DNA of 64,000 nucleotides from a virus (Duplodnaviria; Heunggongvirae; Uroviricota; Caudoviricetes): IMG/VR virus record IMGVR_UViG_3300035158_000899, one strand, 5' to 3'. Shown in pieces: positions 5,404 to 64,000 of this stretch. The position numbers and the translations under genes were made by a program. Under the pieces are notes generated by a model. It searched no databases and was not told the DNA's origin. It was given only the letters and a program-made list of their open reading frames with translations. How positions within the stretch are numbered: position 1 is the stretch's first letter; every line of letters begins with the position of its first letter.

Positions 5404-5763
5404 ATGAAAGTTAAACTTGATTTCGTAACAAATAGTTCTACTACAAGTTATTGCATTGTAGGTATAAGTGGAGGCCTTTTTGCTAAGAAGTTCAAAGAAG
5501 GAAGAGAAAAATTAGAGAAATTAGCAGAAGATGAAAGCGGTGATGGCATATATGAATTTATGGAAGAAGCAGGGTTCGAGAGAGGCTATTGTGATTATAG
5601 CGTAGAAGATACAGATATAATTGGTTTATCAATTACTGATATGCAAGATGATCAAACATTAAGAGCTTTTAAGGAACAAGTATTAGAAAAGCTAAATGAG
5701 TATTGTGATGGCCTTAAGTATAGTGACATAACAGTTATATGTGATGGGTATAGAGATGGATAA
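5404..5763 (+). CDS. Hypothetical protein, tandem paralogue B (N-terminal DFVTNSSTTSY motif)
   Basis: Shares the conserved N-terminal motif with 5024-5395. Strong SD (aggaggg) 6 nt upstream. Confidence 0.55.
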   Translation: MKVKLDFVTNSSTTSYCIVGISGGLFAKKFKEGREKLEKLAEDESGDGIYEFMEEAGFERGYCDYSVEDTDIIGLSITDMQDDQTLRAFKEQVLEKLNEYCDGLKYSDITVICDGYRDG

Positions 5764-11130: not shown

Positions 11131-11490
11131 ATGGGTAAACAAATTCATCTTGTTGGTTATAATGTTTTAATAGAGAGAGAAGAACTCGAAAAGACATCTT
11201 CAAGTGGTCTTGTTATTCCAGAAACTGCAGAGAGAAAAGAAAAGCTGGCTTGTGGGAAAGTTGTACAAAAAGGTCCTGGGTTTCTAATTCCGAATGTTAT
11301 AGGACAAGAAAGTGACTTAGATGTTGTCCTTGAAAGAGAAACAGTAAAGCATAAATTTATTCCGCTTGATGTACAAGAAAGAGATATTGTTTATTATAAC
11401 AAAGAAGCAGGTGAAGAAATTCGATTAAATGGGAAAGATTATGTAATTGTTCCTTACCCTGCAATAAGGTTGTTCATTAGAAGCATATGA
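11131..11490 (+). CDS. GroES/Cpn10 (T4 gp31-like) co-chaperonin
   Basis: 119 aa. 'LVGYNVLIEREELEKTSSSGLVIPETAERKEKLACGKVVQKGPG' matches the GroES core pattern (..vlv.....e.kT.sGiviP....ek...g.VvavG.G). Confidence 0.45.
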   Translation: MGKQIHLVGYNVLIEREELEKTSSSGLVIPETAERKEKLACGKVVQKGPGFLIPNVIGQESDLDVVLERETVKHKFIPLDVQERDIVYYNKEAGEEIRLNGKDYVIVPYPAIRLFIRSI

Positions 11491-11669
11491 AATCTAGTAT
11501 AGATAAAATAGGAAGTTTTTTAGCTTGGATGAATGCCGGCGGTCAAGTTAGTATGAAATATGGAAACCCAAAACAGGAAGAACGATTTAAAAAGGAATTA
11601 AGTGAAGCTCTTGAAGCATATCTTAGACTTGATGATGCTTTTAGAAAAATGTTTAAACCGAAGAGATAG
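11487..11669 (+). CDS. Small hypothetical protein, paralogue of 33423-33611
   Basis: Shares 'KIG(S/D)FLAWMNAGGQV(S/G)MKY.N' with the ORF at 33423. Confidence 0.5.
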   Translation: MKSSIDKIGSFLAWMNAGGQVSMKYGNPKQEERFKKELSEALEAYLRLDDAFRKMFKPKR

Positions 11670-17795: not shown

Positions 17796-18551
17796 ATGAA
17801 AATAACTTATTTAGGTACAGGTTCAGCTTTTTGTATGAACAATTTTCAAACAAATGCATTGATTGAAAATAACGGACAGAAATTACTTATCGATGCCGGA
17901 AGTGATATACGTTTTTCATTAGCGGAACAAAAGTTAACCGCTAATGATTTGGATGCGGTGTATATTAGTCACCAGCATGCAGATCATATAGGAGGAGTAG
18001 AATATATAGCCTTCGTTACTTATTTTATGCCGAATAAGGAGCCGATTACTTTATATGCGAATCAATTTTTGGTTAAAGACATGTGGATAGAAACGCTATG
18101 CGGCGGACTTAAAAGTATTCAAGGTAAATGTATGGGGTTAAGTGATTATTTTAAAGTCCAGCCAGTTGCATGTAATCAACCGTTTTGGTGGCAAAATATT
18201 GAATTTATACCTGTTCAAACAGTGCACGTAATGGACGGTTATAAGATAGTTAGTAGTTTTGGTCTTATGGTTAGGTATCATGGAGAAACTATATTTATGA
18301 CTACTGATACACAGTTTGCTCCAAGTCAGCTTTTAGATTTCTATAAACAAGCTACTTTGATATTTCATGATTGTGAAACAACGCCATTTGCGTCAGGCGT
18401 TCATGCACATTACAATCAACTTTCGACATTGGATGAACAAACAAAAGAAAAAATGTGGCTTACACATTATCAAGATGGCGAATTACCTGATGCAGAGGCA
18501 GATGGATTTAAAGGATTTGTAAAGAAAGGACAAGTATTTAAATTTGAATGA
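17796..18551 (+). CDS. Metallo-beta-lactamase-fold hydrolase
   Basis: 'HQHADHIGG' HxHxDH metal-binding motif, with downstream His and Asp residues. 251 aa. Confidence 0.6.
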   Translation: MKITYLGTGSAFCMNNFQTNALIENNGQKLLIDAGSDIRFSLAEQKLTANDLDAVYISHQHADHIGGVEYIAFVTYFMPNKEPITLYANQFLVKDMWIETLCGGLKSIQGKCMGLSDYFKVQPVACNQPFWWQNIEFIPVQTVHVMDGYKIVSSFGLMVRYHGETIFMTTDTQFAPSQLLDFYKQATLIFHDCETTPFASGVHAHYNQLSTLDEQTKEKMWLTHYQDGELPDAEADGFKGFVKKGQVFKFE

Positions 18552-25859: not shown

Positions 25860-26984
25860 ATGAGTGCACTTTTGAATTACAAGCACTATACTGACAAGTA
25901 CTTTTTAAGAACAAACGAGATCCTTAAGAGAGAAGGTTTAAACCCAATAGTTGGGATGAAAGTGTTTACAAGAGGGGAAGGATCGATTGTAAATCTTAAT
26001 GAAGCGGTAGAATTTGTAAAGGCGAATGCAAAAGGTGCATCGGTGTGGGTTACAAACAGACATACTTATAGAACGAAAGAACCTCTGATGATAATAAGGG
26101 GCCCAATACAAAGCTTTATTGAATTAGAAACGGTTTATTTGGGAATTTTATCTTATGAATTATCGAGAACAGCAGGCATATTGCCGCCGAATGCATACCA
26201 AATCGGCAGTAAGATGAGCAGACTTAAAAATATTTATGGTAAAAAGCCGATACTTTATTTTGGTGCAAGGCATTATCATTGGCAATTTGATAAAGGTATT
26301 GCAAAAGTTGCATTAAAAAACGGTGCAGTGCAAACTTCAACTGATATTGGTTCAGCTAATATTGGGAAGCAAGGGGTAGGCACAACGCCTCATGTTCTTA
26401 CTATTGTACTGGCACATAAGTATGGAAGAGAAAACGCTACACTAAAAACAGCAGAGTTGTTTGACAAACACATGGCAAAAGAGATACCAAAAGTAACTTT
26501 AGTAGATACATTCAATAAAGAAATAACGGATAGTCTTAAGGTAGCAGAATATTTTGGTGAAAGAAAAAATTCTTTAAGAATAGATACTTGTGGTGAGAAT
26601 GTTGGAGAAGATGGATCGTCTTATGATGGAGAAAAAGAAAAAGATCCTGGATTTAAAATAGGAACTGGTGTTACAATAGAATTGGTTGCAAACGTAAGAA
26701 AAGCTTTAATAGAGGCCGGTTATGGTGATAGTACTGACATTGTATTGTCAAGTGGCTTCGGAAACGAAGATAAGGCAAGAATATTTACGAAAGCTGATAA
26801 AGATTTTAAAGAAATGACAGGTTATGATTTATTTTCTTCTGTTGGAATAGGTGAAGTAAGTGAAGCAAGATTCTGTACAGCTGACATATTTGAAGTCGAA
26901 GGTGAGCCTTTTTCAAAGACCGGGCGCGAAATAAGTAAAGAAGAAATAGATATATGTTATGAAACAATGAGGAAGGTAGTTTGA
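25860..26984 (+). CDS. Nicotinate/nicotinamide phosphoribosyltransferase-family protein (PncB/NAPRTase-like)
   Basis: N-terminal 'YTDKYF', 'YFGARHYH' (F-G-x-R-R/H motif) and 'GTTPHVL' (GTxxH) resemble NAPRTase-family signatures. The position next to nadE and pncA supports the call. Confidence 0.45.
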   Translation: MSALLNYKHYTDKYFLRTNEILKREGLNPIVGMKVFTRGEGSIVNLNEAVEFVKANAKGASVWVTNRHTYRTKEPLMIIRGPIQSFIELETVYLGILSYELSRTAGILPPNAYQIGSKMSRLKNIYGKKPILYFGARHYHWQFDKGIAKVALKNGAVQTSTDIGSANIGKQGVGTTPHVLTIVLAHKYGRENATLKTAELFDKHMAKEIPKVTLVDTFNKEITDSLKVAEYFGERKNSLRIDTCGENVGEDGSSYDGEKEKDPGFKIGTGVTIELVANVRKALIEAGYGDSTDIVLSSGFGNEDKARIFTKADKDFKEMTGYDLFSSVGIGEVSEARFCTADIFEVEGEPFSKTGREISKEEIDICYETMRKVV

Positions 26985-27713
26985 ATGAAAAAATTGTAAC
27001 TGTTTGTTCTTTTTGTAAAAGGGTTTGTGACGGTAATAAATGGGTTTCTAAAGATGTTGAAAAAGATATAAGGCTCTCACATGGGGTATGTCCTGAATGT
27101 GCAGAAAAACATTATGGGAAATGGTATAAAAAGAGAGAAGAAAAATGATCTTGTTTGGAATAATACTAAGAACAGGATTTTGGTTATTTATTTAAAATTG
27201 ATAGGGTGACCGTTATTAATTAAAAGGAGAAAGAGATGAGCGAATATGTTTATGGCAAAGTAGCCGAACAACTACGTCAATTGAAGCCTGGCGAAAGGAT
27301 AAACGATATTCTTAGCAAGTGCACTATCTGCCCTACGGGCGATGGAACTTGTAAAAGTTATTCAGAATTAGATATTTATGGATTTAATTCTGACAAAAAG
27401 TGTGAAACTATAAGGCTTACAATCTGTATGCTGGGCGTTATGAGAGAAAAAAGATGCCCACAAATAAGGAGTGAAGATAACTAAGCAATATAAGAATTAT
27501 TATAATGATTAAGCTAATTGGCGGAAGTAGAGATGGGGAGGTTCAAAATAGAGTAATGCCTCCATACCAAGAGAATTAGGTTAAGGTACTGCATGTAGAA
27601 GGTGAAATTCATAGGATAGAAGTATACAAAGACACAGGATATGACGACTATTATGAAATAGTATAGATTTGGTTGTTTAGCTTATGGTTTCTTAAGACCA
27701 AAAGATCAGTCTA

Positions 27714-28571
27714 ATGAAAAGGGGAAAAATGATTAAAGACTATGTAATTGCAGTTAAAAACATAAGAAATACAACTAAGAATTATATAACTAAGTACGAT
27801 ATCAAAGCTCTTGTTATAGGTTTATCAGGCGGAATTGATAGTACACTTTGTAGTGCTTTAGCTAAGCCTGTGTGTGATGAACTCAGTATTCCATTAGTTG
27901 GAAGGAGTCTTCCTATACAAACAAATAAGGTAGATGAAATAAAGAGAGCAAAGAAAGCAGGAGAGGTTTTTTGTACAGAATTTAAGGAAACAAATTTGGA
28001 AAATGAGTTTTATTCTTTTATGAGGAATACTATAGATATACATATAAAAATAAAAAGTGAATTAACAGAAGAAGATAAGATAAGAGAAGGAAACATTAAA
28101 GCTCGGCTTAGGATGATCAAGCTTTATGATGAAGCACAAAAAAGAAAAGGAATGGTACTTTCAACAGACAATTACACGGAATACCTATTGGGGTTCTGGA
28201 CACTCCACGGCGACGTCGGCGATTACGGCATGATCCAGAACCTTTGGAAAACAGAAGTGTATGGGATGGCAAATTATTTAACTGAACTTTACCATTCAAC
28301 AGATAGGCATAGCGAATTCGAAGTGTTATCTGCATGTATAGATGCTGTTCCAACTGATGGATTGGGTGTTTCAGAATCAGATTTAGATCAAATAGGCGCT
28401 AAGGATTACAAAGAGGTAGATGAAATTTTACAAATATGGCTTCGTTTTCAACGTAAAAATGCATTTAAAGATCATCCGGTTGTATTAAGACATGAGAGGA
28501 CCCATTGGAAAAGAAGGAATCCTTGTAATATAGGAAGAGAAACTATAGAAAAAATAAAAGGCGATAAGTAA
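27714..28571 (+). CDS. nadE: NH3-dependent NAD+ synthetase
   Basis: PP-loop 'LVIGLSGGIDSTLCSALA'; 'IKARLRMIKLYDEAQKRKGMVLSTDNYTEYLLGFWTLHGDVGDYGMIQNLWKTEVYGMANYL' matches the NadE core consensus. Confidence 0.8.
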   Translation: MKRGKMIKDYVIAVKNIRNTTKNYITKYDIKALVIGLSGGIDSTLCSALAKPVCDELSIPLVGRSLPIQTNKVDEIKRAKKAGEVFCTEFKETNLENEFYSFMRNTIDIHIKIKSELTEEDKIREGNIKARLRMIKLYDEAQKRKGMVLSTDNYTEYLLGFWTLHGDVGDYGMIQNLWKTEVYGMANYLTELYHSTDRHSEFEVLSACIDAVPTDGLGVSESDLDQIGAKDYKEVDEILQIWLRFQRKNAFKDHPVVLRHERTHWKRRNPCNIGRETIEKIKGDK

Positions 28572-29190
28572 TTATGGAATACGTATATGGAAGAAAATTC
28601 TATGCTGGAAAGAAATATTGTCGTGTAAGTGGAGCATGGTGTGATGGTGTAATTGAAAGAAGAAGTGAGATGGGATGTGAAGGATACTATTGTAAATATT
28701 TTGAAGAAGACATTGATGTAACTTCCATGATGTCCGATGGCCGTAAATTGCTAAGATTACCACAATGTATAAAACGAGCAAAAGAAGTGAAAAGGAGATA
28801 AGTAATGTATTTTAATATTGATTTAGGAGATTATGATGACGAGATTGAATTGTATAACTGTTTAAAGAAAATGAGAAATTGTAGTTTATGTGAGCAATTT
28901 CAAGAAAACTTTACAGGCCTCTACGGATACGATATTGAATATGCTTTTTTTGCTTGGCTTATGGAAAAAGGTTATATAAAATGGGAAGATTAAATATTCC
29001 TTCTAGAACTATTCCTGAAAAGATCGAAAGCGATGCTGATGCTGCAATTGCTATTCAAGAAATTCGTAGGCGTGTTGTGGACACAGGTAGCATACTTCGT
29101 GCTGTTTTGATAGACCAATTAAACAAAATACTGACCCTAGTCAAGTAGAAGAATTTTTAGCTGAACAATTTACAAAACAGGAGGTAGAAA

Positions 29191-29835
29191 ATGAAAAAAA
29201 GAGATACGGCTAGTTTTGATGTTGATGCACAAAATACTTTTACACCTGTTTGTCCTAATGAATTACCAGTCCCAGACGGTAACAATATTGTTGATGAATT
29301 AAATAAGCAAGCTCATTACGCAAGATTAAGAGTGGGAAGTAAAGATGCTCATTCAAATCAAGCATTGTGGGTTGCAGATGAGAAGAATCCGCAGTTCAGC
29401 AAAATAGAAGGCCATGATAATTTAGATATTAGGTGGAAGAGACATGGAGAAGTCGGGAGTGAAGGTTTCGAATTAATAAGTGGGCTTCCTAAAGTAACTG
29501 AATATGATTTTTTTGTATATAAAGGACTAGAAAGAGATTGCCATCCGTATGGGGCATGCTACCACGATTTTGCTGAAAAACTTTCCACAGGAGTAATTGA
29601 ATACCTTAAGTACAACGGCATAAAAAATGTAATAGTAGGAGGGCTTGCCACAGATTATTGTGTTAAATTTACTGTGTTACAATTATGTAAAGCAAATTTT
29701 AAAGTGATAATAAATCTTGCGGCATGTAGAGGCATTGCAGATGAAACTATTCAAGAAGCGATGAAAGAAATAGCAAAAGCGAGTGCCATGATGGTTCAAA
29801 ACAGTAGAGAACTAAGCAGCTTTATTGATAAATGA
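29191..29835 (+). CDS. pncA: Nicotinamidase / isochorismatase-family hydrolase (PncA-like)
   Basis: 'FDVDAQNTF' (catalytic Asp), 'VVGGLATDYCVKFTVLQ' (catalytic Cys in the aTDyCV motif), and the 'ACRGI' C-terminal strand. Confidence 0.6.
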   Translation: MKKRDTASFDVDAQNTFTPVCPNELPVPDGNNIVDELNKQAHYARLRVGSKDAHSNQALWVADEKNPQFSKIEGHDNLDIRWKRHGEVGSEGFELISGLPKVTEYDFFVYKGLERDCHPYGACYHDFAEKLSTGVIEYLKYNGIKNVIVGGLATDYCVKFTVLQLCKANFKVIINLAACRGIADETIQEAMKEIAKASAMMVQNSRELSSFIDK

Positions 29836-33422: not shown

Positions 33423-33611
33423 TTGATTGATTATGGAGAGAAGAGTACTAAAGGAGATGAAATGAGCAAGATAGGAGATTTCCTTGCATGGATGAATGCT
33501 GGTGGCCAGGTTGGTATGAAGTATAATAACTTTCGACAGAAAGACATATTTGAGAATAAGCTGATAGATGACCTTGAAGAGTACAATTTGCTTTCAAATG
33601 TTACGAGGTAG
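33423..33611 (+). CDS. Small hypothetical protein, paralogue of 11487-11669
   Basis: 'KIGDFLAWMNAGGQVGMKYNN' motif shared with the ORF at 11487. Confidence 0.5.
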   Translation: MIDYGEKSTKGDEMSKIGDFLAWMNAGGQVGMKYNNFRQKDIFENKLIDDLEEYNLLSNVTR

Positions 33612-51850: not shown

Positions 51851-54266
51851 TAATGAATTATTGTTGAATTATCAAAAGCGTTTAGAAGATTCTAGATATC
51901 GCACTAAGTTTTTTAAGGATTTAGCAGGCGATGATGAAACATCTTATTTTAAAACGCTTTTGGCTACAGAGCAAAATATAGGTGAACAATTAGTAAAGCG
52001 TGCTGATAGGTTGCAACGCTTAATAAAATTAGGTCAAGTACCCGAAGAAGAGCCTGGAGAAAAGCCCGAAGAAGAGTTAGGGGTTGAGGATGAAGAAGTA
52101 GAAGTAGAACAAATTGAAGAAGAGATAGTAGAAGAACCAGAAAAAAAAGAAATAACTGATGAGGAAATTATAGATTTTAATACAGGCGATAATGCTAAGG
52201 ATTGGCAAGACTATAAAAATTATGTTCAGAATGTGTTGAAAGTAGATTTGCGAAGTAAAACAGTAGCCCCTGATAGTCCTTATGCTCCAGCAATTAATTT
52301 AACAGGTTACACTGATAGTGAAGGTAAACGTCATCCTGGCTTGGTAGAACGTTTTGGTTTTGGTAGGGTTATGGAACCAATCATAATTAAGTACTCACCT
52401 TTAATTGGTGGAGTAGCAGGAAGAGCCATGGATGAAAGATATACATTGCAATTTCCAGGAACAAGCCCTGTAGAACGACAAGCCGAAATGTTTCAAATAC
52501 TTGCTACACGCATGCTAGAAAAGATGAAAACTTACGATCCCAAAAAAGGTACCGTGGGTGGCAGAATGTCAAAGAAAGTAGTAGAGCAAGAATTTTGGAA
52601 TGCTACGAGATTAAGAGAAAAAGCTACTAATTTATATAAAGATCTCGTGTGCCCTTTTTGCAGACAACCTAATACAGCTATAGGAGAAGAAACGAAGTTA
52701 CCAGAAGAATATATATTAGACAATCCTGATCATAACGTTTGGCCTCCTTTTAAGGGTAGTAAAGAGCCTGAAGAAAACAAACAGAAGTGGCTTGAGGTGC
52801 TTAAAGAAGAAGGTGAAATTGAAATGTTTTTGTGTCCAGTATGTGGAAATTTCTTTAGGGATGGAGATCAAGTCACAAAAACAACCGCTGTTGCCCCTGT
52901 TTCTTTAGAAGCACCAATACCAGGGCAAGAAGCAGAAGAAGCAGTTTTCGAAGAAGTAATAGAAGATCCGAAGACAAGAACACCAGGAGAAGCAAGTGAA
53001 GAATTGAAAAGACTTGTTTCTCGTACTGCTACTGAAAGGATTGCAAAAGATGTAAAAAGGATGTTGCTTTATAGAGCCGATGGTTGTAGATTCGATGAAA
53101 AAGAAAGCAAGCTCCGTGAGTTAAAAGGCAGATTGGGAAAAGCTGAGAAATACAACAAGGGTAGTGATTTTTATAAGGTTTTAAAAGGTTATAATATAAA
53201 TGAAGAATTAATTAACGAATTTCAATCTGGTTTAGTAGATGGTATAGCAGATGAAATGGCAGCACAACAGAGTGAGGAAGCGCTACAAGAAATAAGAAGT
53301 AGGAATGAAAAGTTTGTCAGTGATATGGTAAGTAGGATATTTGCGGAAGAAACAGATGCACAATTAACTCAAGATAAACTTGATAAAATTAAATTAGCTG
53401 CAAAAGCTTACATGGAAGGGTTTAAAGAGTTTCGTGAATTAATGAGAAGTAAGGGTAGATGTGCTAAAAACATCAATTGGCTTTACCGTAATCCTTGTTT
53501 TGGGTTATATAAAGATGAAGAAGGTAAGAGCAAAATATGCGAAGGCTATGAAGCAGTAGAATTTAGTAGTGCAGAAAGAATGAGAGCAAGAAAATATTTG
53601 CTAACAGCACAAGCTTTTATTATGGTTTCGGCAGCGGTTATAGAAAAGAAGAAAAGAGGTAAGCATTATAGAGATATAAAGAAATTAGCGAATGAAGCTA
53701 TTGCACAGCAAAATAAAGAACTTGAAGCAAGGAATATGGAACGTAGAAAATTAGGTAAAGAACCAATACCACTTATTGAACCTTGGACTGGCGGGTATGA
53801 TGTTGTAAGTGTACAGGGTGTTAAGAATGCTTTAGTGAAAACAATTATACCTCTCTTTAAGATGAAACCTGTGGAACAAATTGAAGGCATAACAGGTATG
53901 ACTTACGATGAAGCATTAACTATGTATTTAGAAGAACTTGAGGATTTAGCAACAGATAGAGGCACTGATATAAAAGAATTGGACTGGCAAGCATTTAAAG
54001 GTAACCCGGGAGCAATTAGAAAACATGTAGAGTTTTTTGGCAAGGAACAATCAAGTGAACGTTTGGGAAGAATGAGAGAGTTAGCCATATTAGCAAGAGA
54101 AGGTGACGAAGAAGCTATTCATACTCTTAGAAGATTGTTTGGGGATAATGAAAAAGTAAAAGAAATAATGAAACAAGAAACAGAAAGGGAGGGTGCGTGT
54201 CAGACATTTCTTACGAAATCCAGTCAGCGCCAACGGAGATCAAGATTGTTGAAGGTGCGAATGTAA
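51843..54266 (+). CDS. Large hypothetical protein (807 aa) with acidic N-terminal tract, a paralogous 'YDPKKGT' sigma-region-2-like segment and zinc ribbon
   Basis: 'ILATRMLEKMKTYDPKKGTVGGRMSKKVVEQEF' followed by 'CPFCRQ'/'CPVCGN' parallels the upstream ORF. EEPGEKPEEELGVEDEEVEVEQIEEEIVEEPE low-complexity region. Confidence 0.3.
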   Translation: MDSNELLLNYQKRLEDSRYRTKFFKDLAGDDETSYFKTLLATEQNIGEQLVKRADRLQRLIKLGQVPEEEPGEKPEEELGVEDEEVEVEQIEEEIVEEPEKKEITDEEIIDFNTGDNAKDWQDYKNYVQNVLKVDLRSKTVAPDSPYAPAINLTGYTDSEGKRHPGLVERFGFGRVMEPIIIKYSPLIGGVAGRAMDERYTLQFPGTSPVERQAEMFQILATRMLEKMKTYDPKKGTVGGRMSKKVVEQEFWNATRLREKATNLYKDLVCPFCRQPNTAIGEETKLPEEYILDNPDHNVWPPFKGSKEPEENKQKWLEVLKEEGEIEMFLCPVCGNFFRDGDQVTKTTAVAPVSLEAPIPGQEAEEAVFEEVIEDPKTRTPGEASEELKRLVSRTATERIAKDVKRMLLYRADGCRFDEKESKLRELKGRLGKAEKYNKGSDFYKVLKGYNINEELINEFQSGLVDGIADEMAAQQSEEALQEIRSRNEKFVSDMVSRIFAEETDAQLTQDKLDKIKLAAKAYMEGFKEFRELMRSKGRCAKNINWLYRNPCFGLYKDEEGKSKICEGYEAVEFSSAERMRARKYLLTAQAFIMVSAAVIEKKKRGKHYRDIKKLANEAIAQQNKELEARNMERRKLGKEPIPLIEPWTGGYDVVSVQGVKNALVKTIIPLFKMKPVEQIEGITGMTYDEALTMYLEELEDLATDRGTDIKELDWQAFKGNPGAIRKHVEFFGKEQSSERLGRMRELAILAREGDEEAIHTLRRLFGDNEKVKEIMKQETEREGACQTFLTKSSQRQRRSRLLKVRM

Positions 54267-55456
54267 TAAAGGAAAAGAAAGAGAAATATTGGGATTCTAT
54301 TAAAAAGGATATTGAATTACCAGGTTTCAGAAAAGGCCATGTCGATAGAAAAACATATGAAAATAAAGTAGGTTATTTTAATTTATACCATCCCATCGTA
54401 GATGATGTAGTCTTTAGTGCTCTCGAATCAATAAAAGATTTTAGAATTGTTTGTGTTTTAGAAAAGAAAGTTGTTCAATTTTTTGATGACATACCTCTCA
54501 TTGTTAAAGTTTTGGTAGATACAAGGCCAAATGTCAAAATAACAGGTAACTATAAAAATATTGAAATCGAAGTACCCAAAATAAAAGTTATCGATGAGGA
54601 AGTAGATCGTCGTATCAATTCTCTTGTTTATTCAAAGACTCCTGCCAAGCCAATAACTGATAGGCCCACCCAAAAAGGCGATTCCATTAAGATTGATTAC
54701 AAAGGGTTTATAGTCGAGGATAATGCTTGGAGACCATTAGCAGGTTACGAAGCTAAAAATGTGAATTTAGTTTTAGGCAACAATCGCTTAAGTATTATAC
54801 CAGATATTGAAGAGTCAATCGTTGGGATGAAGAAAGATGAGATAAAGACCATTGAGGGAACAATACAAGAAAAACGCGGTAAAGTCGAGGTATGTTTAAA
54901 AGAAATATCAATTAGAGAATTGCCGGAAATCAATGACGAATTAGCGAAGCAATATAAATTCACATCATTGGAAGATATGAAGAGTAAGACAAGAGATGAG
55001 TTAGCACAATTTAAAAAAGCACAAATAGAAGTTGACAAACAAGGAAAGATTATCGATGCGTTGATTAAAGATTGTGAATTTGATTCAATACCAAAGTCAA
55101 TGGTAAGAATGCAAATAGAATCTGCGCTGCAATCAGAATGTAAAAATTTCGGCATGGACGTGAAGAAATTTTTAGAGACAATGAAAATTACCAGGGCTGC
55201 TTATGAAGAAGACCGGTTTGAAGATGCACTACGGCTTGTTAAAGCAAGACTTGCATTAGAAGAATTAGCAGAAAGGGAAAAGATTGGTTGTACAGATGAG
55301 GAGATTGAAAAAGAAATGGGCGAAAATGCGAAGAAGGCCGGTGTTAAACTTGAAGAATACAAGAATAGAGTGAATAAAGATGGTATTGGTAATGATTTGA
55401 AGGTCGGTAAAGCGTTACTTTATTTGAAAGAAAGTGTGAGGTATAAGGAGGTTTAA
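54197..55456 (+). CDS. tig: Trigger factor (ribosome-associated chaperone / FKBP-type PPIase) homologue
   Basis: N-terminal ribosome-binding signature 'LPGFRKGHV' (GFRxGxxP), FKBP region 'VDYKGFIVEDNAW...LVLGNNRLSIIPDIEESIVGMKKDEIKTIEG', and 'IRELPEINDELAKQY' align with E. coli Tig over its full length. Confidence 0.75.
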   Translation: MSDISYEIQSAPTEIKIVEGANVIKEKKEKYWDSIKKDIELPGFRKGHVDRKTYENKVGYFNLYHPIVDDVVFSALESIKDFRIVCVLEKKVVQFFDDIPLIVKVLVDTRPNVKITGNYKNIEIEVPKIKVIDEEVDRRINSLVYSKTPAKPITDRPTQKGDSIKIDYKGFIVEDNAWRPLAGYEAKNVNLVLGNNRLSIIPDIEESIVGMKKDEIKTIEGTIQEKRGKVEVCLKEISIRELPEINDELAKQYKFTSLEDMKSKTRDELAQFKKAQIEVDKQGKIIDALIKDCEFDSIPKSMVRMQIESALQSECKNFGMDVKKFLETMKITRAAYEEDRFEDALRLVKARLALEELAEREKIGCTDEEIEKEMGENAKKAGVKLEEYKNRVNKDGIGNDLKVGKALLYLKESVRYKEV

Positions 55457-56473
55457 TTGATAAAGTTTGGGTCACATCCTTTTCCTGACTTTGACTCAAT
55501 TGTATCCACGTGGCTGTATAAAAGGTTTGTTATAAAAGATGAAGAATACGAATTTTTTATAACAGGCAATGATAAATTAAAAGACGAAGCAGTATTAATC
55601 GATATAGGATTAGGTGAATACGATCATCATCAGTATATAGGCGAATGTAGTAATTGTAACCATCCAATAGAAATACCACATAAAAACCAAATTTGCCCTC
55701 ACTGTAATGAAGTAAAATTAACAAACGCTAATATTGATTTAATCAGCGCCGCACATGTTATAGCAAAAAAACATAGTTTGGATTTTCTTGGTTGCGATAA
55801 TTTGGCAATACGAGCAAATCAAGTAGATAGTGTTATGGTTAATAATATGAAGCCGGGTGATTTGTTTTATGTTATTAGAGGTTTGAATGAAATTTATTCT
55901 CATGGATTTAAAAAAGTATATGAAATTGTATGGAAGATTTTAGATAAAATGCATGAGAAAGGTTATTTTGTTGACGACAAATATGAAGTTGATAACAAAG
56001 TACTGTCCGGACACGAGGACATAGAAGTTATAGAAAAAGCGATAGATACAGGTGCCGAAAAAGAAGCGCAAGTGAAAATTTTAGTAGAAAATTCGTATAA
56101 ATTCACGGCTTTGTTAGAAACAGAAAATGGTAAGAAAGTAAGTGTTCCTGCACTCGCAGCAGAAACAGATTTGAACATGAGTTATAGTTCTCATGGTAAA
56201 GATTTTGTTTTGTATGTTTATAAAAACCCAAGTAATGGCATAGCAGGCTATAACAGTAGAAATCCGGGCAAAGGTGACTTAGGCATACCAGAAGTTGATT
56301 TAACAAATATATACAATACTATTAAAACGATCGAACCAAATGAACGCGCCGAATGGTATTTACATTGGTCAAAGAGGTTACTGTTGTGTGGAAGCAAAAA
56401 AAGAGATTTTGGAAAAGAAAAAGCAACTGAATTATCTTTACAACAACTCATAGAATTGGTGAAGAAAAAATGA
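55457..56473 (+). CDS. DHH-family phosphoesterase (NrnA/GdpP-like) with inserted zinc ribbon
   Basis: 'FGSHPFPDFDSIVSTWL' (H..PD.D..S motifs I-II) and 'LIDIGLGEYDHHQ' (DHH motif III); 'CSNCNH...CPHCNE' ribbon insertion. Confidence 0.5.
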   Translation: MIKFGSHPFPDFDSIVSTWLYKRFVIKDEEYEFFITGNDKLKDEAVLIDIGLGEYDHHQYIGECSNCNHPIEIPHKNQICPHCNEVKLTNANIDLISAAHVIAKKHSLDFLGCDNLAIRANQVDSVMVNNMKPGDLFYVIRGLNEIYSHGFKKVYEIVWKILDKMHEKGYFVDDKYEVDNKVLSGHEDIEVIEKAIDTGAEKEAQVKILVENSYKFTALLETENGKKVSVPALAAETDLNMSYSSHGKDFVLYVYKNPSNGIAGYNSRNPGKGDLGIPEVDLTNIYNTIKTIEPNERAEWYLHWSKRLLLCGSKKRDFGKEKATELSLQQLIELVKKK

Positions 56474-56830: not shown

Positions 56831-58171
56831 ATGAAAACGACAATGAATAAAAATACCTGTTATATTTTTGGAAGATGGCTGGGTGATGGTAGTAAAACAA
56901 CAAATGCATTAGAAATTGCGAGAAGTAATAATAATTATGAAAAAAAAAATATGGAACAAATAGCGGTTATGCTTAATACTACATATAAACATTGTAATAA
57001 TTATAGTACAAGATTTCATAGACAACAAAAATTAGTCAATCAATTTAAAATTCTATATAATGTTATAAGCGAGATTCACAATTTTTCTTTTTTAAAATTT
57101 TCAATAAATAGATATTCAATTATAGCAGGTTTTCTTGATTCTGACGGCAGCGTAGATATTCACACGCCAAATGAAACTGGAATAAGCAGTAAAAAAATAA
57201 ATATTGTATTTTATAATAATAATTCGCAAATTTTATATTTTATACAAAGATTGCTGCAGATAGACAACATAACATCAACATATAGTAAATCGTATAATTT
57301 AAAAACAAATGTGGGAACAGATAAATGCAACAGGTTATACATACACGGAAGCTTAGATAATTATTTTATAGCATATAAAATATTACCACATATGTTATGC
57401 AATTTTAAGAAAAAGAGATTACAACAATGGACTCGTGATTACGATCGTTTTTATCAAAAAAAGAAAATAAATATTACCGAAATTTTTCATAGTATAGAAG
57501 GTGAGGGACGCAGAATTGGAGAACCTATTACATTTATAAGAGTATACGGCTGCCCGCATAAATGTTCGTTTTGTGATACCAAATATTCTGTGTGTAAGAG
57601 CAGAAGTACGAGATCAAAACATAGCAGGGATTTAAAAATTGTAATCAATGATATTATTAAATTAGGTAACGTTCAAAATATCGAATTTACAGGAGGTTCC
57701 CCAGATTGGTTCCCAGCAAAAATTGGTTATCTATTGATATATTTTAAAGCACGGTATAACAGTAACATAACTATGCAAGTTAGTGGAGGCATTAAAACAG
57801 ATAAGAGCAATAGATTATTTAAATTGTCTACGTTAAACGCATTTGATTATAAGGACCCAAGGGAGAATATTCCATTCGTTATCGAACCTGAATTGATTCG
57901 TTCACAGGATGAAATTAAATTTTTAATAAAAGATAATTTTAGTTACAATTTTGTAAAAAAGAAGATCCAGGAATTGCAAGCTATTGGTATAAATTGTAAA
58001 ATGATAATAACAACTGTAACAAATAATGGCAACGATATTGTTACAGATCATTTAGAAAAATTGAAAAAATTAACAGAAAAAATATTAACAGATGCAAATT
58101 TTCCTAAAGAAAATGTTAAAATTGCCCCCAGGGAACACGTATTATTATGGGGAAATAAAAAAGGTGTATAG
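56831..58171 (+). CDS. queE: 7-carboxy-7-deazaguanine synthase QueE (radical SAM) carrying an in-frame N-terminal double-motif LAGLIDADG homing-endonuclease domain
   Basis: Residues about 215-446: 'EIFHSIEGEGRRIGEPITFIRVYGCPHKCSFCDTKYS' matches the QueE N-terminus with the Cx3Cx2C cluster. Residues 1-214: 'YIFGRWLGDGS' and 'IIAGFLDSDGSV' LAGLIDADG motifs about 90 aa apart in an extremely AT-rich, Asn/Lys-rich segment. Confidence 0.7.
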   Translation: MKTTMNKNTCYIFGRWLGDGSKTTNALEIARSNNNYEKKNMEQIAVMLNTTYKHCNNYSTRFHRQQKLVNQFKILYNVISEIHNFSFLKFSINRYSIIAGFLDSDGSVDIHTPNETGISSKKINIVFYNNNSQILYFIQRLLQIDNITSTYSKSYNLKTNVGTDKCNRLYIHGSLDNYFIAYKILPHMLCNFKKKRLQQWTRDYDRFYQKKKINITEIFHSIEGEGRRIGEPITFIRVYGCPHKCSFCDTKYSVCKSRSTRSKHSRDLKIVINDIIKLGNVQNIEFTGGSPDWFPAKIGYLLIYFKARYNSNITMQVSGGIKTDKSNRLFKLSTLNAFDYKDPRENIPFVIEPELIRSQDEIKFLIKDNFSYNFVKKKIQELQAIGINCKMIITTVTNNGNDIVTDHLEKLKKLTEKILTDANFPKENVKIAPREHVLLWGNKKGV

Positions 58172-58366
58172 CGTTGTTATTTTTAAACTAGCTTTTTAGA
58201 AGCTGCAGATGCAACAAAAGAGTATAATATGTTAGAGAAGATTCCTTTAATAATCGGCATAATAATAGGTTTACTTATTTTATCTTTACCACCTGTTGAA
58301 AGATTTTCGATTGAATTATTTGAGCAAATTAAAAAAGCAGCATTAAAAGCGAGATAATAAGGAGAT

Positions 58367-59050
58367 ATGATGAAATCAGTAGTGTGTCTTAGTGGCGGCA
58401 TGGACAGTGCAACCATGTTGTGGAGGGCAGCGACAGAAAATGGTGAACTGCACGTAATATCTTTTGATTACAATCAACGTCACAAAATAGAATTGGAGTA
58501 TGCTAAAAAATTATGCGGTAGAGTCAGGAAAGTAGTTGAGCATAAAATAATCAATATAGATATGTCTCAAATAGGTGGTAGCCCTTTAACAGATAAGAGT
58601 ATTGATGTACCAAAAGCTTCTGATAAACAACAGATTAAAACAGTTCAACCGTTTAGAAACACTTTATTCACAGTTCTTGCAGCAGCATATGCTGAAGTTA
58701 ACAGTATTGACACAATTTATCTTTCACCAGTACAGGAAGATTATTTGGCATATCGTGACTGTAGGAAAGAATTTTTTACAGCGTTAGAGCATACTTTAAG
58801 TTTGGGCAGTACATATCCAATTGATTTTCATATAAAGACGCCCTATATTTTTAAAACAAAAAAAGAAGTTTTAGAAGATGGGTTACGCATGGGTGTACCT
58901 TATGAACTTACTTATACTTGTTATGAAGGCGACCCGCAAGGGTTTTGTGGTGAATGTGATGCCTGTAAAGAGCGTATAGATGCTTTTAAACAGATTAGCC
59001 AAAAAGATCCTGCTAAGTATTTGAGGGAGATAGAATGGGAAGATCAATGA
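58367..59050 (+). CDS. queC: 7-cyano-7-deazaguanine (preQ0) synthase QueC
   Basis: 'SVVCLSGGMDSATMLW' PP-loop, 'ISFDYNQRHKIELEYAKKL', and C-terminal Zn site 'CGECDACKERIDAF'. Confidence 0.85.
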   Translation: MMKSVVCLSGGMDSATMLWRAATENGELHVISFDYNQRHKIELEYAKKLCGRVRKVVEHKIINIDMSQIGGSPLTDKSIDVPKASDKQQIKTVQPFRNTLFTVLAAAYAEVNSIDTIYLSPVQEDYLAYRDCRKEFFTALEHTLSLGSTYPIDFHIKTPYIFKTKKEVLEDGLRMGVPYELTYTCYEGDPQGFCGECDACKERIDAFKQISQKDPAKYLREIEWEDQ

Positions 59051-59429: not shown

Positions 59430-60750
59430 TCCGCATTTCTATTAATAGTTTGTTTTTTAACAATCTATTAATAAATATATATAATAAAAATAGATAACGC
59501 TATTATTGATTGATAAAGGTATATTGTGCAGAGAGTAGAACGTCATATAGTTTTAAACAATAGGAATATAGAAAAGCTGTGTACCCTTTCTAAAAACCTT
59601 TATAATGTGGGTAATTATAACATCAGGCAGGAGTTTATAAACAATGGTAATTGGTTGAGATATCAACAATTAGATAAATTACTTAAGGAAACTAAAGATT
59701 ATAAAGCGCTTTCTGCACAAGTAGCTCAACAAGTATTAAGGCTTCTGGATAAAAATTGGATATCATTTTTTGAAGCAAATAAGAGATATAATAGGGATTC
59801 AAAAAAATTTAGAAGCAGACCTAAGTTGCCAAGGTATAAAAATAAAAATACAGGGAAAAATATGGTTGTCTTTACTAAACAAGATGCTAGACTAAAAAAT
59901 GGATTTATTTGTTTCCCAAAAAAAGTTAACCTTGAACCTTTAAAAACAAAAGTAAATAATATTTGTCAAGTTAGAATTGTGCCACAAGCAGTTTGTTATG
60001 TTATTGAAGTTGTTTACAATAAGGAGGCCAAAAATGTAAAATTACAACCGAACACTTATTTGAGTATTGATCTAGGTGTCAATAATTTTGCTACATGTGT
60101 TAACAACATAGGTTTAAAACCTTTTGTTGTAAATGGTAAGATATTAAAATCTATTAATCAATATTTTAATAAGAAAAAAGCTAGGCTAATGTCTTATGTA
60201 AAAGATAAGGGTACTTCTAATAAGGTTGACAAATTGATACATAAACGAAATTGCAAAGTACAAGATTATCTCCATAAGACTTCGAGGTTTATAGTTAATT
60301 ATTGTATTGCGTATAAAATAGGTGTTATTATTGTTGGTAAAAATAAAGATTGGAAGCAAGAAATTGATATGGGAAAAAAGAACAATCAAAATTTTGTTTC
60401 AATACCTTTTGACACTTTAGTAAAACAAATACGGTATAAGGCTGAAGAAGCAGGAATTAAGATAGCTGTTAGTGAAGAATCTTATACTTCTAAATGCAGT
60501 TTTTTAGATTTTGAAAAGGTCAAAAAACAAGTTGAATATTTAGGTAAAAGAATTAAGAGAGGGTTATTTAGGTCAGCGGAAGGTATTTTGATAAATGCAG
60601 ATGTTAATTCTGCTTATAATATTTTAAAAAAAGTAGTTCCAAATGCATTTGCAAATGGAATAGAGGGTGTAGGGTTACATCCAATTGTAATACAATTACA
60701 ATAAAAGATAACCTTAATAATAGTATATTTATCGACAAGGACTTAGCGAT
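59430..60750 (+). mobile_element. IS200/IS605-family insertion sequence of the TnpB-only (IS1341-like) type
   Basis: Contains only a TnpB ORF. The flanking AT-rich ends carry palindromic 'tctattaata(g)' motifs on the left (x2) and 'ttaataatag' on the right. Exact boundaries are uncertain. Confidence 0.6.
59526..60704 (+). CDS. tnpB: IS605 OrfB / TnpB RuvC-like RNA-guided nuclease family protein
   Basis: N-terminal 'NLYNVGNYNIRQEF' helix-turn-helix region, RuvC-I 'LSIDLGVNNFATCV', C-terminal 'NADVNSAYNILKKV' (RuvC-III). The usual CxxC...CxxC zinc finger appears degenerate (a single Cys). Confidence 0.85.
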   Translation: MQRVERHIVLNNRNIEKLCTLSKNLYNVGNYNIRQEFINNGNWLRYQQLDKLLKETKDYKALSAQVAQQVLRLLDKNWISFFEANKRYNRDSKKFRSRPKLPRYKNKNTGKNMVVFTKQDARLKNGFICFPKKVNLEPLKTKVNNICQVRIVPQAVCYVIEVVYNKEAKNVKLQPNTYLSIDLGVNNFATCVNNIGLKPFVVNGKILKSINQYFNKKKARLMSYVKDKGTSNKVDKLIHKRNCKVQDYLHKTSRFIVNYCIAYKIGVIIVGKNKDWKQEIDMGKKNNQNFVSIPFDTLVKQIRYKAEEAGIKIAVSEESYTSKCSFLDFEKVKKQVEYLGKRIKRGLFRSAEGILINADVNSAYNILKKVVPNAFANGIEGVGLHPIVIQLQ

Positions 60751-63353: not shown

Positions 63354-63652
63354 TACTGTTAGAGTATAACGGTGCGCTAAAATTTATTGAAGAAGAATTT
63401 AGCGCAGAATATGAAGTCACCACTATCAAATACCCGATGACATTTTTGACAAAAATTGTATCTGAAAAGTATGATATGATAGTAGTAGATTATTTAAATC
63501 CTTTAATACCATCGCGAGTATTAAAAGAAAAATTAGATACGATATTGGGTATTGGGAACTATTACGTTTTAGCGCACGATATGGAGTGTGCTGCAAAAAA
63601 ATTTGAAACAACAAAATTGATAGAATATAAAAAGTTTAAGGAGGGGATAGCT

Positions 63653-64000
63653 AATGTTTAAAGCAGCGGTTGAAACAATTAAAAAAGAATTGCCCCCGAA
63701 ACACAAAGCAGTTGTTGATAAAATAAAAGAAACCGCGAAAGAATTAGGTATTAAAGCATATATCGCCGGTGGTTATGTTCGAGATTTGATTTTAGATAAG
63801 CCAAGTGAAGATATTGATATAATGTGTGAAAGAGATGCTGTTAAGTTAGTTCAAGCTTTAGTTAAAAAACATGCTTTGTCAACACCTGTTACATATGGAA
63901 GATCTCAAGCGATAGCAGTAGTATTGGATGGTTATCCTATTGATTTCATTGATGCAGAAAAAGTAATTTCACCAGTTGGTGGAACGCTTGAAGGTAGAGA
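63653..64000 (+). CDS. tRNA nucleotidyltransferase (CCA-adding) / poly(A) polymerase family protein, N-terminal part (3' end outside the window)
   Basis: 'AYIAGGYVRDLILDKPSEDIDIMCE' is the GG.VRD...G....D.D head-domain signature of class II CCA-adding enzymes. SD 'aaggagggg' upstream. Confidence 0.6.

What the first reader, a model, noticed from the sequence alone, without database searches (positions are those of the whole stretch)
56831..59050. Adjacent queE-queC (preQ0 synthesis) in a phage context: probable 7-deazaguanine modification of phage DNA, with the rest of the pathway absent from this window
QueC and QueE, both recognised with high confidence, make 7-cyano-7-deazaguanine (preQ0) from CPH4. 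In phages these genes normally accompany folE, queD and a DpdA-type transglycosylase, which installs preQ0, ADG or G+ in DNA as anti-restriction armour.

No FolE, QueD (CxxxHGH) or Tgt/DpdA-like ORF was recognised in this 64-kb window. A TnpB insertion sequence sits immediately downstream at 59430-60750 and may have split the cluster. The remaining genes may lie elsewhere. Alternatively the phage relies on host GTP cyclohydrolase I and QueD.
Basis: partly seen in the sequence, partly recalled or inferred. Interest (0 to 1): 0.6.

Follow-up and report, generated by a model that had tools for sequence, protein, structure and literature searches.

The report
Homing-endonuclease-fused QueE plus QueC, phage
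Two adjacent genes for making the modified base preQ0 are really there in a phage-like genome, but the first is an unusual fusion of a homing-endonuclease domain to QueE, and the enzyme that would put the base into DNA is not in this window.

Summary

- **QueC.** ORF 58367-59050 is a canonical QueC.
- **QueE.** ORF 56831-58171 is not a plain QueE. Residues 1-210 are a two-motif LAGLIDADG homing-endonuclease domain. It is fused in frame to a Bacillus subtilis-type QueE radical-SAM domain (residues 211-446). There is no credible internal start codon.
- **The fusion is conserved.** At least 17 other metagenomic proteins (26-50% identical) share the architecture, and both catalytic Asp residues are invariant. 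In a scan of 1.84 billion representatives, this LAGLIDADG subfamily's close relatives were found only on QueE.
- **Rest of the pathway.** No FolE, FolE2, QueD, QueF or DpdA is in the 64 kb. I checked with Pfam, PHROGs, tblastn and custom DpdA1/DpdA3 HMMs.
- **Relatives.** All six related loci with enough flank carry a DpdA within 7 kb of QueE. This QueE lineage therefore belongs to DNA-modification clusters.
- **QueC origin.** QueC is of bacterial descent (48-55% to chromosomal QueCs, 32-38% to phage QueCs).

7-deazaguanine DNA modification is the best reading but is unproven for this genome. About 53 kb of the 117-kb contig could not be retrieved. Nothing supports the idea that TnpB split a cluster.

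New variant of a known kind; moderate interest.

The parts
56831..57460 (+). N-terminal LAGLIDADG homing-endonuclease domain (aa 1 to about 210) of the 446-aa fusion protein. The motifs are FGRWLGDGS (catalytic D19) and IAGFLDSDGS (catalytic D105).
   Evidence: Pfam LAGLIDADG_3 E 5e-6, above its cut-off. The AF2 model shows two alpha-beta-beta-alpha-beta-beta-alpha halves at high pLDDT. Foldseek matches PI-SceI, I-Tsp061I and I-OnuI. W16, D19, G20, G100, D105, G106 and N129 are invariant in 18 fused homologues. GC is 25.4% against 34.4% for the whole window.
57461..58171 (+). QueE (7-carboxy-7-deazaguanine synthase) radical-SAM domain, aa about 211-446. It is in the same reading frame as the LAGLIDADG domain. 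Features: EIFHSIEGEG, the C241-x3-C245-x2-C248 cluster, and the C-terminal LLWGNKKGV tail.
   Evidence: NCBIfam QueE models at 6e-23 and 1e-22. phrog_2076 'QueE-like' at 3e-22. PDB QueE 5TGS at E 1.5e-11, including the C-terminal tail. Foldseek 5TH5 at E 1e-10, TM-score 0.75. No conserved or RBS-preceded internal start codon.
58229..58360 (+). Small 43-aa ORF with one hydrophobic helix, in the 196-bp gap between QueE and QueC. Function unknown and membership of the unit uncertain.
   Evidence: Translation. Relatives also carry a small ORF between QueE and QueC: 75 aa in L083 and 84 aa in L106. Homology between them was not tested.
58367..59050 (+). QueC (7-cyano-7-deazaguanine synthase). It has the PP-loop LSGGMDS and the Zn-binding cysteines C...CGECDAC. 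An AAGGAG ribosome-binding site lies upstream.
   Evidence: Pfam QueC 2e-59. TIGR00364 at 173 bits, above the cut-off of 150. PDB 2PG3 at 4e-31. phrog_1550 at 8e-61. DNA read.
59526..60704 (+). TnpB (IS605/IS1341-type RNA-guided nuclease ORF), a neighbour and not part of the pathway. A sigma-70-like promoter lies at 59457-59485. The IS ends were not determined.
   Evidence: Pfam OrfB_IS605 5.5e-23 plus the Cas12f1-like TNB domain 2e-9. phrog_506 'transposase' 1e-47. Promoter scan. It has the second-lowest GC of the 69 larger ORFs.

Best explanation
**What the segment encodes.** It lies in a large, uncultivated phage-like genome and encodes two consecutive enzymes of the preQ0 branch.
- Gene 1 makes one polypeptide. 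An N-terminal LAGLIDADG homing-endonuclease domain is fused to a B. subtilis-type QueE, which turns CPH4 into 7-carboxy-7-deazaguanine by radical-SAM chemistry.
- Gene 2 is a canonical QueC, which turns CDG into preQ0 through ADG, using ATP and ammonia.

**Shown.** The domain identities, the intact catalytic motifs, the fusion, and its conservation.

**Inferred: the pathway's purpose.** The pair feeds a 7-deazaguanine DNA-modification system. This QueE lineage occurs in phage clusters of the form QueD-QueE-(PRTase)-FolE/FolE2-DpdA-(QueF)-QueC. The missing DpdA, QueD and FolE would then lie in the unseen 53 kb or more of the genome. Alternatively, the host could supply the FolE and QueD steps.

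**Inferred: the LAGLIDADG domain.** It is best read as a site-specific selfish homing endonuclease that has settled at the 5' end of queE as an in-frame N-terminal extension. In effect it is an intein-like passenger that needs no splicing because it sits at the terminus. It would spread by cutting HEG-less queE alleles in co-infecting phages. This reading explains four observations:
- its exclusive association with QueE;
- its invariant catalytic Asp residues;
- its absence from a sister clade of plain QueEs;
- the low GC of the gene in this window.
For: **Domain calls.**

**The fusion is real and old.**
- Eight full-length homologues at 44-50% identity, and one at 28%, come from independent samples.
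- The nine next-best hits to the LAGLIDADG profile among 1.84e9 representatives, excluding one unexamined repeat protein, are all LAGLIDADG-QueE proteins of 438-508 aa.
- D19 and D105 are invariant in 18 sequences.
- The identities of the two domains co-vary.
- The fused sequences P0001-P0008 form a clade that is sister to plain QueEs.
- There is no Hint or intein block and no group I intron.

**Link to DNA modification.**
- DpdA3 in the relatives is 51% identical to the 'DNA guanine transglycosylase' of Flavobacterium phage immuto and 44-45% to Campylobacter CP220-type phages.
- A DpdA lies within 7 kb of QueE in L081, L083, L086, L089, L106 and L002.
- PMC10516641 states that all viruses known to carry 7-deazaguanine synthesis genes encode a DpdA.

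**Phage-like context.**. Nearly all genes are on one strand and there are many ORFans. Recognisable genes include PhageMetallopep, an Apyc1-like protein, and Mre11/Rad50 with Bacillus phage G as the best phage match.

**Mosaic origin.** QueE has the lowest GC of 69 ORFs, z = -2.1. QueC's nearest homologues are bacterial chromosomal genes.
Against: - No DpdA of any tested type is in 64 kb. In every relative it is 2-6 kb from QueE.
- QueD and FolE are also missing, with no remnants. The local arrangement is therefore not the canonical cluster.
- The window shares only QueE and QueC with the relatives. Guilt by association therefore rests on one gene, and that gene may itself be mobile.
- The QueE domain scores far below NCBIfam's equivalog cut-offs (81 against 206-300 bits). 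Its exact substrate is inferred.
- Endonuclease activity and homing are untested. The GC3 deviation is weak, z = -0.9.
- No virion gene lies in the window, so 'phage' is itself an inference.
Confidence: 0.55

Rival explanations
1. **Auxiliary metabolic genes for tRNA queuosine or the preQ0 pool.** The genome has no DpdA. QueE and QueC raise the host's flux from CPH4 to preQ0, which the host's own QueF and Tgt then place in tRNA to tune translation during infection.
For: No DpdA, QueD or FolE in 64 kb. QueC is of the bacterial housekeeping type, 48-55% identical to chromosomal QueCs. The window carries other translation and tRNA-related genes: trigger factor, RlaP, and a CCA-adding-like ORF at its end. 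PMC6884629 notes that the hosts of phages with preQ0 genes but no DpdA all have the full Q pathway.
Against: PMC10516641 later found a DpdA in every virus that carries 7-deazaguanine synthesis genes. The QueE lineage here is tied to DpdA clusters in 6 of 6 relatives. At least 45% of the contig is unseen.
Confidence: 0.2
2. **Hitch-hiking cargo or a decaying remnant.** The LAGLIDADG element carried queE into this genome, or the rest of a former cluster was lost. The pair has no current role in the phage.
For: The QueE fusion has the lowest GC of 69 ORFs, next to a low-GC TnpB. QueD, which abuts QueE or lies within about 2 kb upstream in 6 of 7 relatives, is missing. The window shares no other gene with the relatives.
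Against: Both ORFs are intact, with every invariant catalytic residue. QueE's start codon overlaps the stop of the upstream ORF, which suggests translational coupling, and QueC has a strong RBS. Two consecutive pathway steps of different origin sit side by side, which argues for selection on the pair.
Confidence: 0.12
3. **Domesticated LAGLIDADG domain with a role in the pathway.** The domain no longer homes. It gives QueE a DNA-binding or DNA-cleaving function. It might tether precursor synthesis to DNA, or it might cut unmodified target DNA while the phage's own deazaguanine-modified DNA is immune.
For: The LAGLIDADG subfamily's close relatives occur only on QueE, with no close free-standing copy among 1.84e9 representatives. 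The two domains have co-diverged over a long period. The model's pTM of 0.86 suggests a fixed arrangement of the domains. A different LAGLIDADG domain is fused to FolE in L083.
Against: Site-specific homing alone explains the exclusive association. A sister clade of plain QueEs sits in the same kind of DpdA3 cluster, as in L089 and phage immuto, so the domain is dispensable. There are no functional data.
Confidence: 0.1
4. **Not a phage.** The window comes from a plasmid or a small cellular genome, and QueE and QueC serve ordinary tRNA modification.
For: There are no virion genes and no tRNAs in the window. Many genes look cellular: RuvB, GroES, trigger factor, NadE. The contig was not found in the viral collection.
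Against: Almost all genes are on one strand and there are very many ORFans. Recognisable phage-type genes include PhageMetallopep, an Apyc1-like protein, phrog_1362 and phrog_26774. Mre11's best matches are phage genes. All QueE relatives lie on phage contigs. The contig is also missing from the metagenome collection, so its absence from the viral collection says nothing.
Confidence: 0.05

Closest known systems
[quoted passage not shown]
   Same: The QueE is of the same broad type, and QueC is present. Metagenomic relatives of this QueE have the same gene order as phage immuto: QueD-QueE-PRTase-FolE-DpdA3-QueF.
   Different: The window has no DpdA, QueD, FolE or QueF. Its QueE carries a 210-aa LAGLIDADG domain, which no phage in the 50,697-record collection has. 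The window's QueE domain is only 32% identical to immuto QueE, over 129 residues.
Inteins with LAGLIDADG endonuclease domains (for example PI-SceI)
   Same: An in-frame selfish endonuclease domain inside a host protein gene. PI-SceI's endonuclease domain is among the best fold matches.
   Different: There are no Hint splicing blocks, no N-terminal Cys/Ser nucleophile context, and no C-terminal His-Asn plus Cys/Ser/Thr. The first LAGLIDADG motif starts 11 residues from the N-terminus. The domain is terminal rather than inserted, so it presumably stays attached to QueE.
Free-standing phage homing endonuclease genes (T4 seg/mob type) and LAGLIDADG ORFs fused in frame to host genes in organelles (for example rps3 fusions in fungal mitochondria; from my own knowledge)
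   Same: A site-specific selfish nuclease sits beside or on a conserved gene and is present in only some relatives.
   Different: Phage free-standing HEGs are mostly GIY-YIG or HNH enzymes with their own ORF. Here a LAGLIDADG domain is translationally fused to the enzyme. The fusion is kept across at least 15 clusters at 50% identity.
Canonical bacterial QueC and B. subtilis-type QueE of the queuosine pathway
   Same: QueC passes the equivalog model. The QueE domain has the CxxxCxxC cluster, the EIFxSIxGEG motif, the LLWGNKxGV tail and the QueE fold.
   Different: The QueE domain scores far below the equivalog cut-offs and carries an extra N-terminal domain. The genes lie in a phage-like genome without queD, folE, queF or tgt nearby.

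Membership tests
QueC (PF06508 / TIGR00364) | Score above the curated equivalog cut-off, over the full length | tested here: met
   TIGR00364 scores 173.3 bits against a cut-off of 150.3. Pfam QueC scores E 2e-59 and covers profile positions 1-209 of 210.
QueC (PF06508 / TIGR00364) | PP-loop ATP-binding motif SGGxDS and a C-terminal Zn-binding cysteine cluster | tested here: met
   LSGGMDS lies at aa 8-14. TCYEG...GFCGECDAC aligns with the cysteines of solved QueC 2PG3.
QueE (7-carboxy-7-deazaguanine synthase) | Radical-SAM CxxxCxxC cluster preceded by the E-x-F-x-[ST]-x-[QE]-G-E-G motif | tested here: met
   TEIFHSIEGEG and C241/C245/C248 are invariant in 20 homologues, fused and plain.
QueE (7-carboxy-7-deazaguanine synthase) | Score above NCBIfam's curated equivalog cut-off | tested here: not met
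   The best scores are 81.6 bits (TIGR04349, cut-off 300) and 80.7 bits (TIGR03365, cut-off 206.1). QueE models are nevertheless the top four hits, and TIGR03365 is covered over positions 2-238 of 238.
QueE (7-carboxy-7-deazaguanine synthase) | QueE fold and the C-terminal tail of the B. subtilis type | tested here: met
   Foldseek ranks 5TH5 and 5TGS first (E 1e-10, TM-score 0.75-0.78). The LLWGNKKGV tail aligns with B. subtilis LLWGNKRGV.
QueE (7-carboxy-7-deazaguanine synthase) | Converts CPH4 to CDG | not testable with these tools
   This needs an enzyme assay or complementation of a queE deletion.
LAGLIDADG homing endonuclease | Two LAGLIDADG motifs, each ending in a catalytic acidic residue, within two alpha-beta-beta-alpha-beta-beta-alpha halves | tested here: met
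   WLGDG (D19) and FLDSDG (D105) are invariant in 18 sequences. Pfam LAGLIDADG_3 scores 27 bits against a cut-off of 22.5.
LAGLIDADG homing endonuclease | Encoded in a group I intron, in an intein, or as a free-standing ORF | tested here: not met
   The domain is fused in frame to QueE with no stop codon and no credible internal start. There is no Rfam intron match and no Hint blocks.
LAGLIDADG homing endonuclease | Site-specific DNA cleavage and homing | not testable with these tools
   This needs cleavage assays on HEG-less queE junctions and co-infection crosses.
Intein | Hint domain blocks A/B and F/G, an N-terminal Cys/Ser, and a C-terminal His-Asn followed by Cys/Ser/Thr | tested here: not met
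   The first LAGLIDADG helix starts at residue 7-11. The junction with QueE reads ...DRFYQKKK|INITEIF, with no HN motif.
Phage 7-deazaguanine DNA-modification system (PMC6884629, PMC10516641) | A DpdA-family DNA transglycosylase, the signature protein | tested here: not met
   None is in the 64-kb window by Pfam TGT/DUF6610, PHROGs, the DpdA3 HMM (best E 0.36) or the DpdA1 HMM (best E 0.036). Positive controls scored 1e-24 to 1e-134. The rest of the genome could not be tested.
Phage 7-deazaguanine DNA-modification system (PMC6884629, PMC10516641) | preQ0 synthesis genes FolE, QueD, QueE and QueC | tested here: inconclusive
   QueE and QueC are present. FolE/FolE2 and QueD are absent from the window. 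The host or the unseen part of the genome may supply them.
Phage 7-deazaguanine DNA-modification system (PMC6884629, PMC10516641) | 7-deazaguanine nucleosides in virion DNA | not testable with these tools
   This needs LC-MS/MS or raw-signal analysis of long reads.
TnpB / IS605-family element | OrfB_IS605 (RuvC-like) domain plus a zinc-ribbon TNB domain | tested here: met
   PF01385 at 5.5e-23 and PF07282 at 2.3e-9.
TnpB / IS605-family element | Defined left and right ends with an omega-RNA, showing that it is an insertion | not tested
   Relatives in viral contigs are only 41-60% identical, which is too far for mapping the ends at DNA level. There is no Rfam hit.

The most novel reading that the evidence does not exclude
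The LAGLIDADG domain is not just a passenger. It works as the nuclease half of a single-polypeptide 'modify and cut' pair. The QueE domain supplies the deazaguanine precursor that makes the phage's own DNA immune. The LAGLIDADG domain cuts the corresponding unmodified site in competing phages or in host DNA. This would be a restriction-modification-like logic that has not been described for deazaguanine systems. It could also work with a DpdA-independent route in genomes like this one.
Probability: 0.07. Interest if true: 0.8.

Novelty: new variant of a known kind. Interest (0 to 1): 0.42.

Why it matters
Phage preQ0 genes are common. QueC matched 335 phage records, so the gene pair itself is ordinary.

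Two things are new.

- **A conserved family of LAGLIDADG-QueE fusion proteins.** I found no paper in the held library that describes it. It offers a clean natural case of a homing endonuclease living as a non-splicing, in-frame terminal domain of an enzyme. It raises a testable question: can LAGLIDADG enzymes cut deazaguanine-modified DNA?
- **A large phage-like genome with QueE and QueC but no QueD, FolE or DpdA across 64 kb.** If the whole genome lacks DpdA, it would be a counter-example to the current rule that every virus with deazaguanine synthesis genes encodes a DpdA.

Tried and rejected
**Retrieving the source contig (117,056 bp, JGI) failed.**
- Exact-protein look-ups for QueC and for the identical QueE entry found nothing.
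- The contig is not among the viral contigs.
- A metagenome scan with the last ORF of the window found nothing.
- A viral scan with the upstream 338-aa protein (55457-56473) found no relative.

**Other searches that led nowhere.**
- Megablast of 24 kb against phages gave no match.
- A word-indexed protein search with the LAGLIDADG domain alone gave nothing. The exhaustive HMM search was needed instead.
- PDB sequence search did not recognise DpdA3, and Pfam missed the relatives' DpdAs. I therefore built DpdA HMMs from annotated phage genes.

**Readings considered and rejected.**
- *Intein:* no Hint blocks.
- *Intron-encoded HEG:* no group I intron in Rfam.
- *Assembly artefact creating the fusion:* at least 17 independent contigs share it.
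- *Internal start for QueE:* the only nearby Met (aa 188) is not conserved and has no RBS.
- *Defence-type QueC (QatC):* E 0.0017 against 4e-51 for canonical QueC.
- *TnpB splitting a cluster:* no pathway gene or remnant lies on either side.

**Not attempted.** Mapping the TnpB ends by comparison, because relatives are only 41-60% identical.
Full report
**1. What is at the coordinates**

The region is tightly packed on the + strand.
- ORF 56831-58171 (446 aa) starts with an ATG that overlaps the stop codon of a 54-aa ORF.
- A 196-bp gap follows. It holds a possible 43-aa membrane ORF.
- ORF 58367-59050 (227 aa) comes next, behind an AAGGAG ribosome-binding site.

The second ORF is a canonical QueC.
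- Pfam QueC scores E 2e-59 over the whole profile.
- TIGR00364 scores 173.3 bits against a cut-off of 150.3.
- It aligns along its full length with solved QueC 2PG3 at E 4e-31, including the SGGxDS loop and the zinc-binding cysteines.

The first ORF is not a plain QueE.
- Residues about 211-446 match QueE models best. TIGR04349 scores 6e-23. TIGR03365 scores 1e-22 and is covered over positions 2-238 of 238. The 81-bit scores lie far below the curated cut-offs of 206-300 bits.
- PHROGs calls this part 'QueE-like radical SAM domain' at 3e-22.
- Residues 1-210 carry two LAGLIDADG motifs, FGRWLGDGS and IAGFLDSDGS. They match Pfam LAGLIDADG_3 above its cut-off.

An AlphaFold2 model built on 20 homologues is confident, with pLDDT 86 and pTM 0.86.
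- Its C-terminal half is closest to B. subtilis QueE (5TH5, E 1e-10, TM-score 0.75).
- Its N-terminal half is closest to LAGLIDADG endonucleases such as PI-SceI, I-Tsp061I and I-OnuI.
- The C-terminal tail LLWGNKKGV matches that of B. subtilis QueE.

**2. The fusion is real and conserved**

- The protein database holds an identical JGI protein on a 117,056-bp contig. It also holds eight full-length homologues at 44-50% identity and one at 28%. All have both domains.
- Eleven homologues of 259-309 aa have the QueE domain only.
- No fused member has a Met, Val or Leu start near the domain junction. In the window the only nearby Met (residue 188) is not conserved and has no ribosome-binding site. 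QueE must therefore be made as a fusion.
- It is not an intein. The first LAGLIDADG helix begins at residue 7-11, there is no room for Hint blocks, and the junction has no His-Asn motif.
- It is not intron-borne. Rfam finds no group I intron or any other RNA family.
- A profile of the LAGLIDADG domain alone was searched against 1.84 billion representative proteins. It gave 450 hits at E <= 1e-3 but only 17 at E <= 1e-10.
- Besides the five already known, I checked the nine next-best full-domain hits (438-508 aa). All are N-terminal LAGLIDADG plus C-terminal QueE. No close free-standing copy appeared. One 880-aa repeat protein among the top hits was not examined.
- In 18 fused sequences at 26-50% identity, both catalytic aspartates (D19, D105) and their glycines are invariant.
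- The identities of the two domains rise and fall together.
- On a neighbour-joining tree of the QueE domain, the fused proteins P0001-P0008 form one clade that is sister to the plain ones.
- None of the 50,697 phage records has the fused form. No BFVD structure has this architecture. I found no paper that links LAGLIDADG with QueE or deazaguanine.

**3. The rest of the pathway is not in the window**

- Pfam on every + strand ORF of at least 55 aa, run as concatenated chunks and then singly, found no TGT, DUF6610, GTP cyclohydrolase I, GCHY-1, PTPS or QueF.
- PHROGs on the ten largest unannotated ORFs found nothing relevant.
- tblastn with QueD, FolE, FolE2, QueF, PRTase and DpdA3 taken from relatives found nothing below E 0.1.
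- Pfam failed to recognise the relatives' DpdAs. I therefore built HMMs from annotated phage DpdAs and searched the six-frame translation with all filters off. The DpdA3 model's best hit had E 0.36. The DpdA1 model's best hit had E 0.036 at 8 bits, on a metallopeptidase ORF. The same models scored 2e-24 to 7e-134 on the control loci.

**4. What relatives show**

Contigs that carry the closest QueEs are phage contigs, with gp32, UvsW, baseplate, sheath and DNA polymerase genes.
- QueD lies just upstream of QueE, abutting it or within about 2 kb, in six of seven.
- FolE or FolE2 lies nearby in six of seven.
- QueC lies nearby in five of seven.
- QueF is present in one.

A conserved 264-aa protein of 'unknown function' in these loci is DpdA3. 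It is 51% identical to the annotated DNA guanine transglycosylase of Flavobacterium phage immuto and 44-45% to Campylobacter CP220-type phages. Those are the phages for which PMC10516641 defined DpdA3.

With the custom HMMs, a DpdA lies 2-6 kb from QueE in all six loci that have enough flank.
- DpdA3 type: L081, L083, L086, L089.
- DpdA1-like: L106, L002.

The QueE lineage is thus tied to DNA-modification clusters. The window, however, shares only QueE (41-55% identical) and QueC (32-37%) with these loci.

QueC's nearest homologues (48-55% identical) sit in bacterial chromosomal neighbourhoods of 56-63% GC. The best phage QueC is 38% identical.

The QueE fusion has the lowest GC of the window's 69 larger ORFs (27.8%, z = -2.1). 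TnpB has the second lowest. The pair therefore looks assembled from two sources.

**5. Context**

- The window is 34% GC, with strong positive GC skew and nearly all genes on one strand.
- There are many ORFans. Recognisable genes include a MoxR/VWA pair, GroES, RuvB, two SLT lysozymes, an Apyc1-like metallo-beta-lactamase, RNase HII, an NAD salvage set, Mre11/Rad50, PhageMetallopep and a trigger factor homologue.
- Mre11's best phage match is Bacillus phage G, at 29%.
- There are no tRNAs and no virion genes.
- A large uncultivated phage is the most likely source, but this is an inference.

**6. TnpB**

- ORF 59526-60704 is an intact TnpB with a promoter-like site just upstream.
- Downstream of it, up to base 64000, lie small unknown ORFs, a rubrerythrin-like protein and the start of a CCA-adding-like enzyme. 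No pathway gene or fragment is there.
- Nothing supports the suggestion that the IS split a cluster.

**7. Interpretation**

*Shown:*
- a LAGLIDADG-QueE fusion and a canonical QueC, both intact;
- a conserved fusion family;
- no DpdA, QueD or FolE in 64 kb.

*Inferred:*
- The pair makes CDG and preQ0 from CPH4.
- The likeliest use is 7-deazaguanine DNA modification, with DpdA elsewhere in the genome. I estimate about 0.55. The main alternative is support of host tRNA queuosine, at about 0.2.
- The LAGLIDADG domain is most simply a site-specific selfish endonuclease that lives as an in-frame N-terminal extension of QueE. A domesticated role is not excluded.

**8. Verdict**

The gene pair itself is ordinary. 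The fusion family and the 'orphan' QueE-QueC arrangement make this a new variant of a known kind, of moderate interest.

Noticed in passing
L083 13022-14257 (JGI marine sediment contig, 70 kb): A second pathway enzyme carries an N-terminal LAGLIDADG domain: a 411-aa LAGLIDADG plus GTP cyclohydrolase I (FolE) protein, in the same phage as a LAGLIDADG-QueE. Its motifs (ILGLWYADGW, FMRGYFDGDGS) differ from the QueE-linked ones, which suggests an independent fusion.
   Followed up: partly
L088 9586-10008; L089 12471-13001; L106 13002-13442; L083 12544-13035; L093 6843-7238: A small phosphoribosyltransferase-like gene recurs next to QueE or FolE in deazaguanine clusters, including Flavobacterium phage immuto. 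I know of no assigned role for it in the pathway. It could act on a deazaguanine base. The window has no copy.
   Followed up: no
L081 9921-11678; L088 4037-7834: The relatives are rich in selfish elements. The dUTPase next to QueE in L081 is interrupted by an intein/endonuclease segment, and the DNA polymerase of L088 carries an intein.
   Followed up: no
window 25860-29835: An NAD salvage/synthesis set lies here: an NAPRT/NAMPT-like protein (374 aa), NAD synthase NadE, and an isochorismatase-type nicotinamidase. It could be a counter to NAD-depleting defence systems.
   Followed up: no
window 17796-18551: A metallo-beta-lactamase-fold protein matches the anti-Pycsar Apyc1 family at E 6e-28. 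This could be an anti-defence nuclease for cyclic nucleotides.
   Followed up: no
window 54197-55456 and 11131-11490: A full three-domain trigger factor homologue and a GroES homologue are encoded in this phage-like genome. The trigger factor also matches a PHROG of unknown function (phrog_26774, E 5e-33).
   Followed up: no
window 63651-64000 and 9314-10177: tRNA/RNA repair-type genes are present. The window ends inside an ORF with a poly(A) polymerase/CCA-adding head domain (E 1e-7). An RlaP-type nucleotidyltransferase lies at 9314-10177.
   Followed up: no
window 11487-11669 and 33423-33611; 5024-5395 and 5404-5763: There are pairs of small paralogous ORFs. Two share the motif (G/D)FLAWMNAGGQV. 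Two adjacent ORFs share the start MK(I/V)(R/K)(I/L)DFVTNSS.
   Followed up: no
window 8258-9268 and 12056-13771: A MoxR-type AAA+ ATPase (AAA_5 with the CbbQ C-terminal domain) and a 571-aa CobT-like VWA protein lie a few genes apart. This looks like a chaperone-like pair of unknown role in this genome.
   Followed up: no
window 59526-60704; L094-L105: TnpB homologues at 41-60% identity occur on at least 12 large viral contigs (10-176 kb). This TnpB lineage therefore appears to circulate among phages.
   Followed up: partly
window 3-713: The window starts inside a radical SAM/SPASM-domain protein whose C-terminal part resembles NirJ/AhbD-type maturases. It is unrelated to QueE.
   Followed up: no
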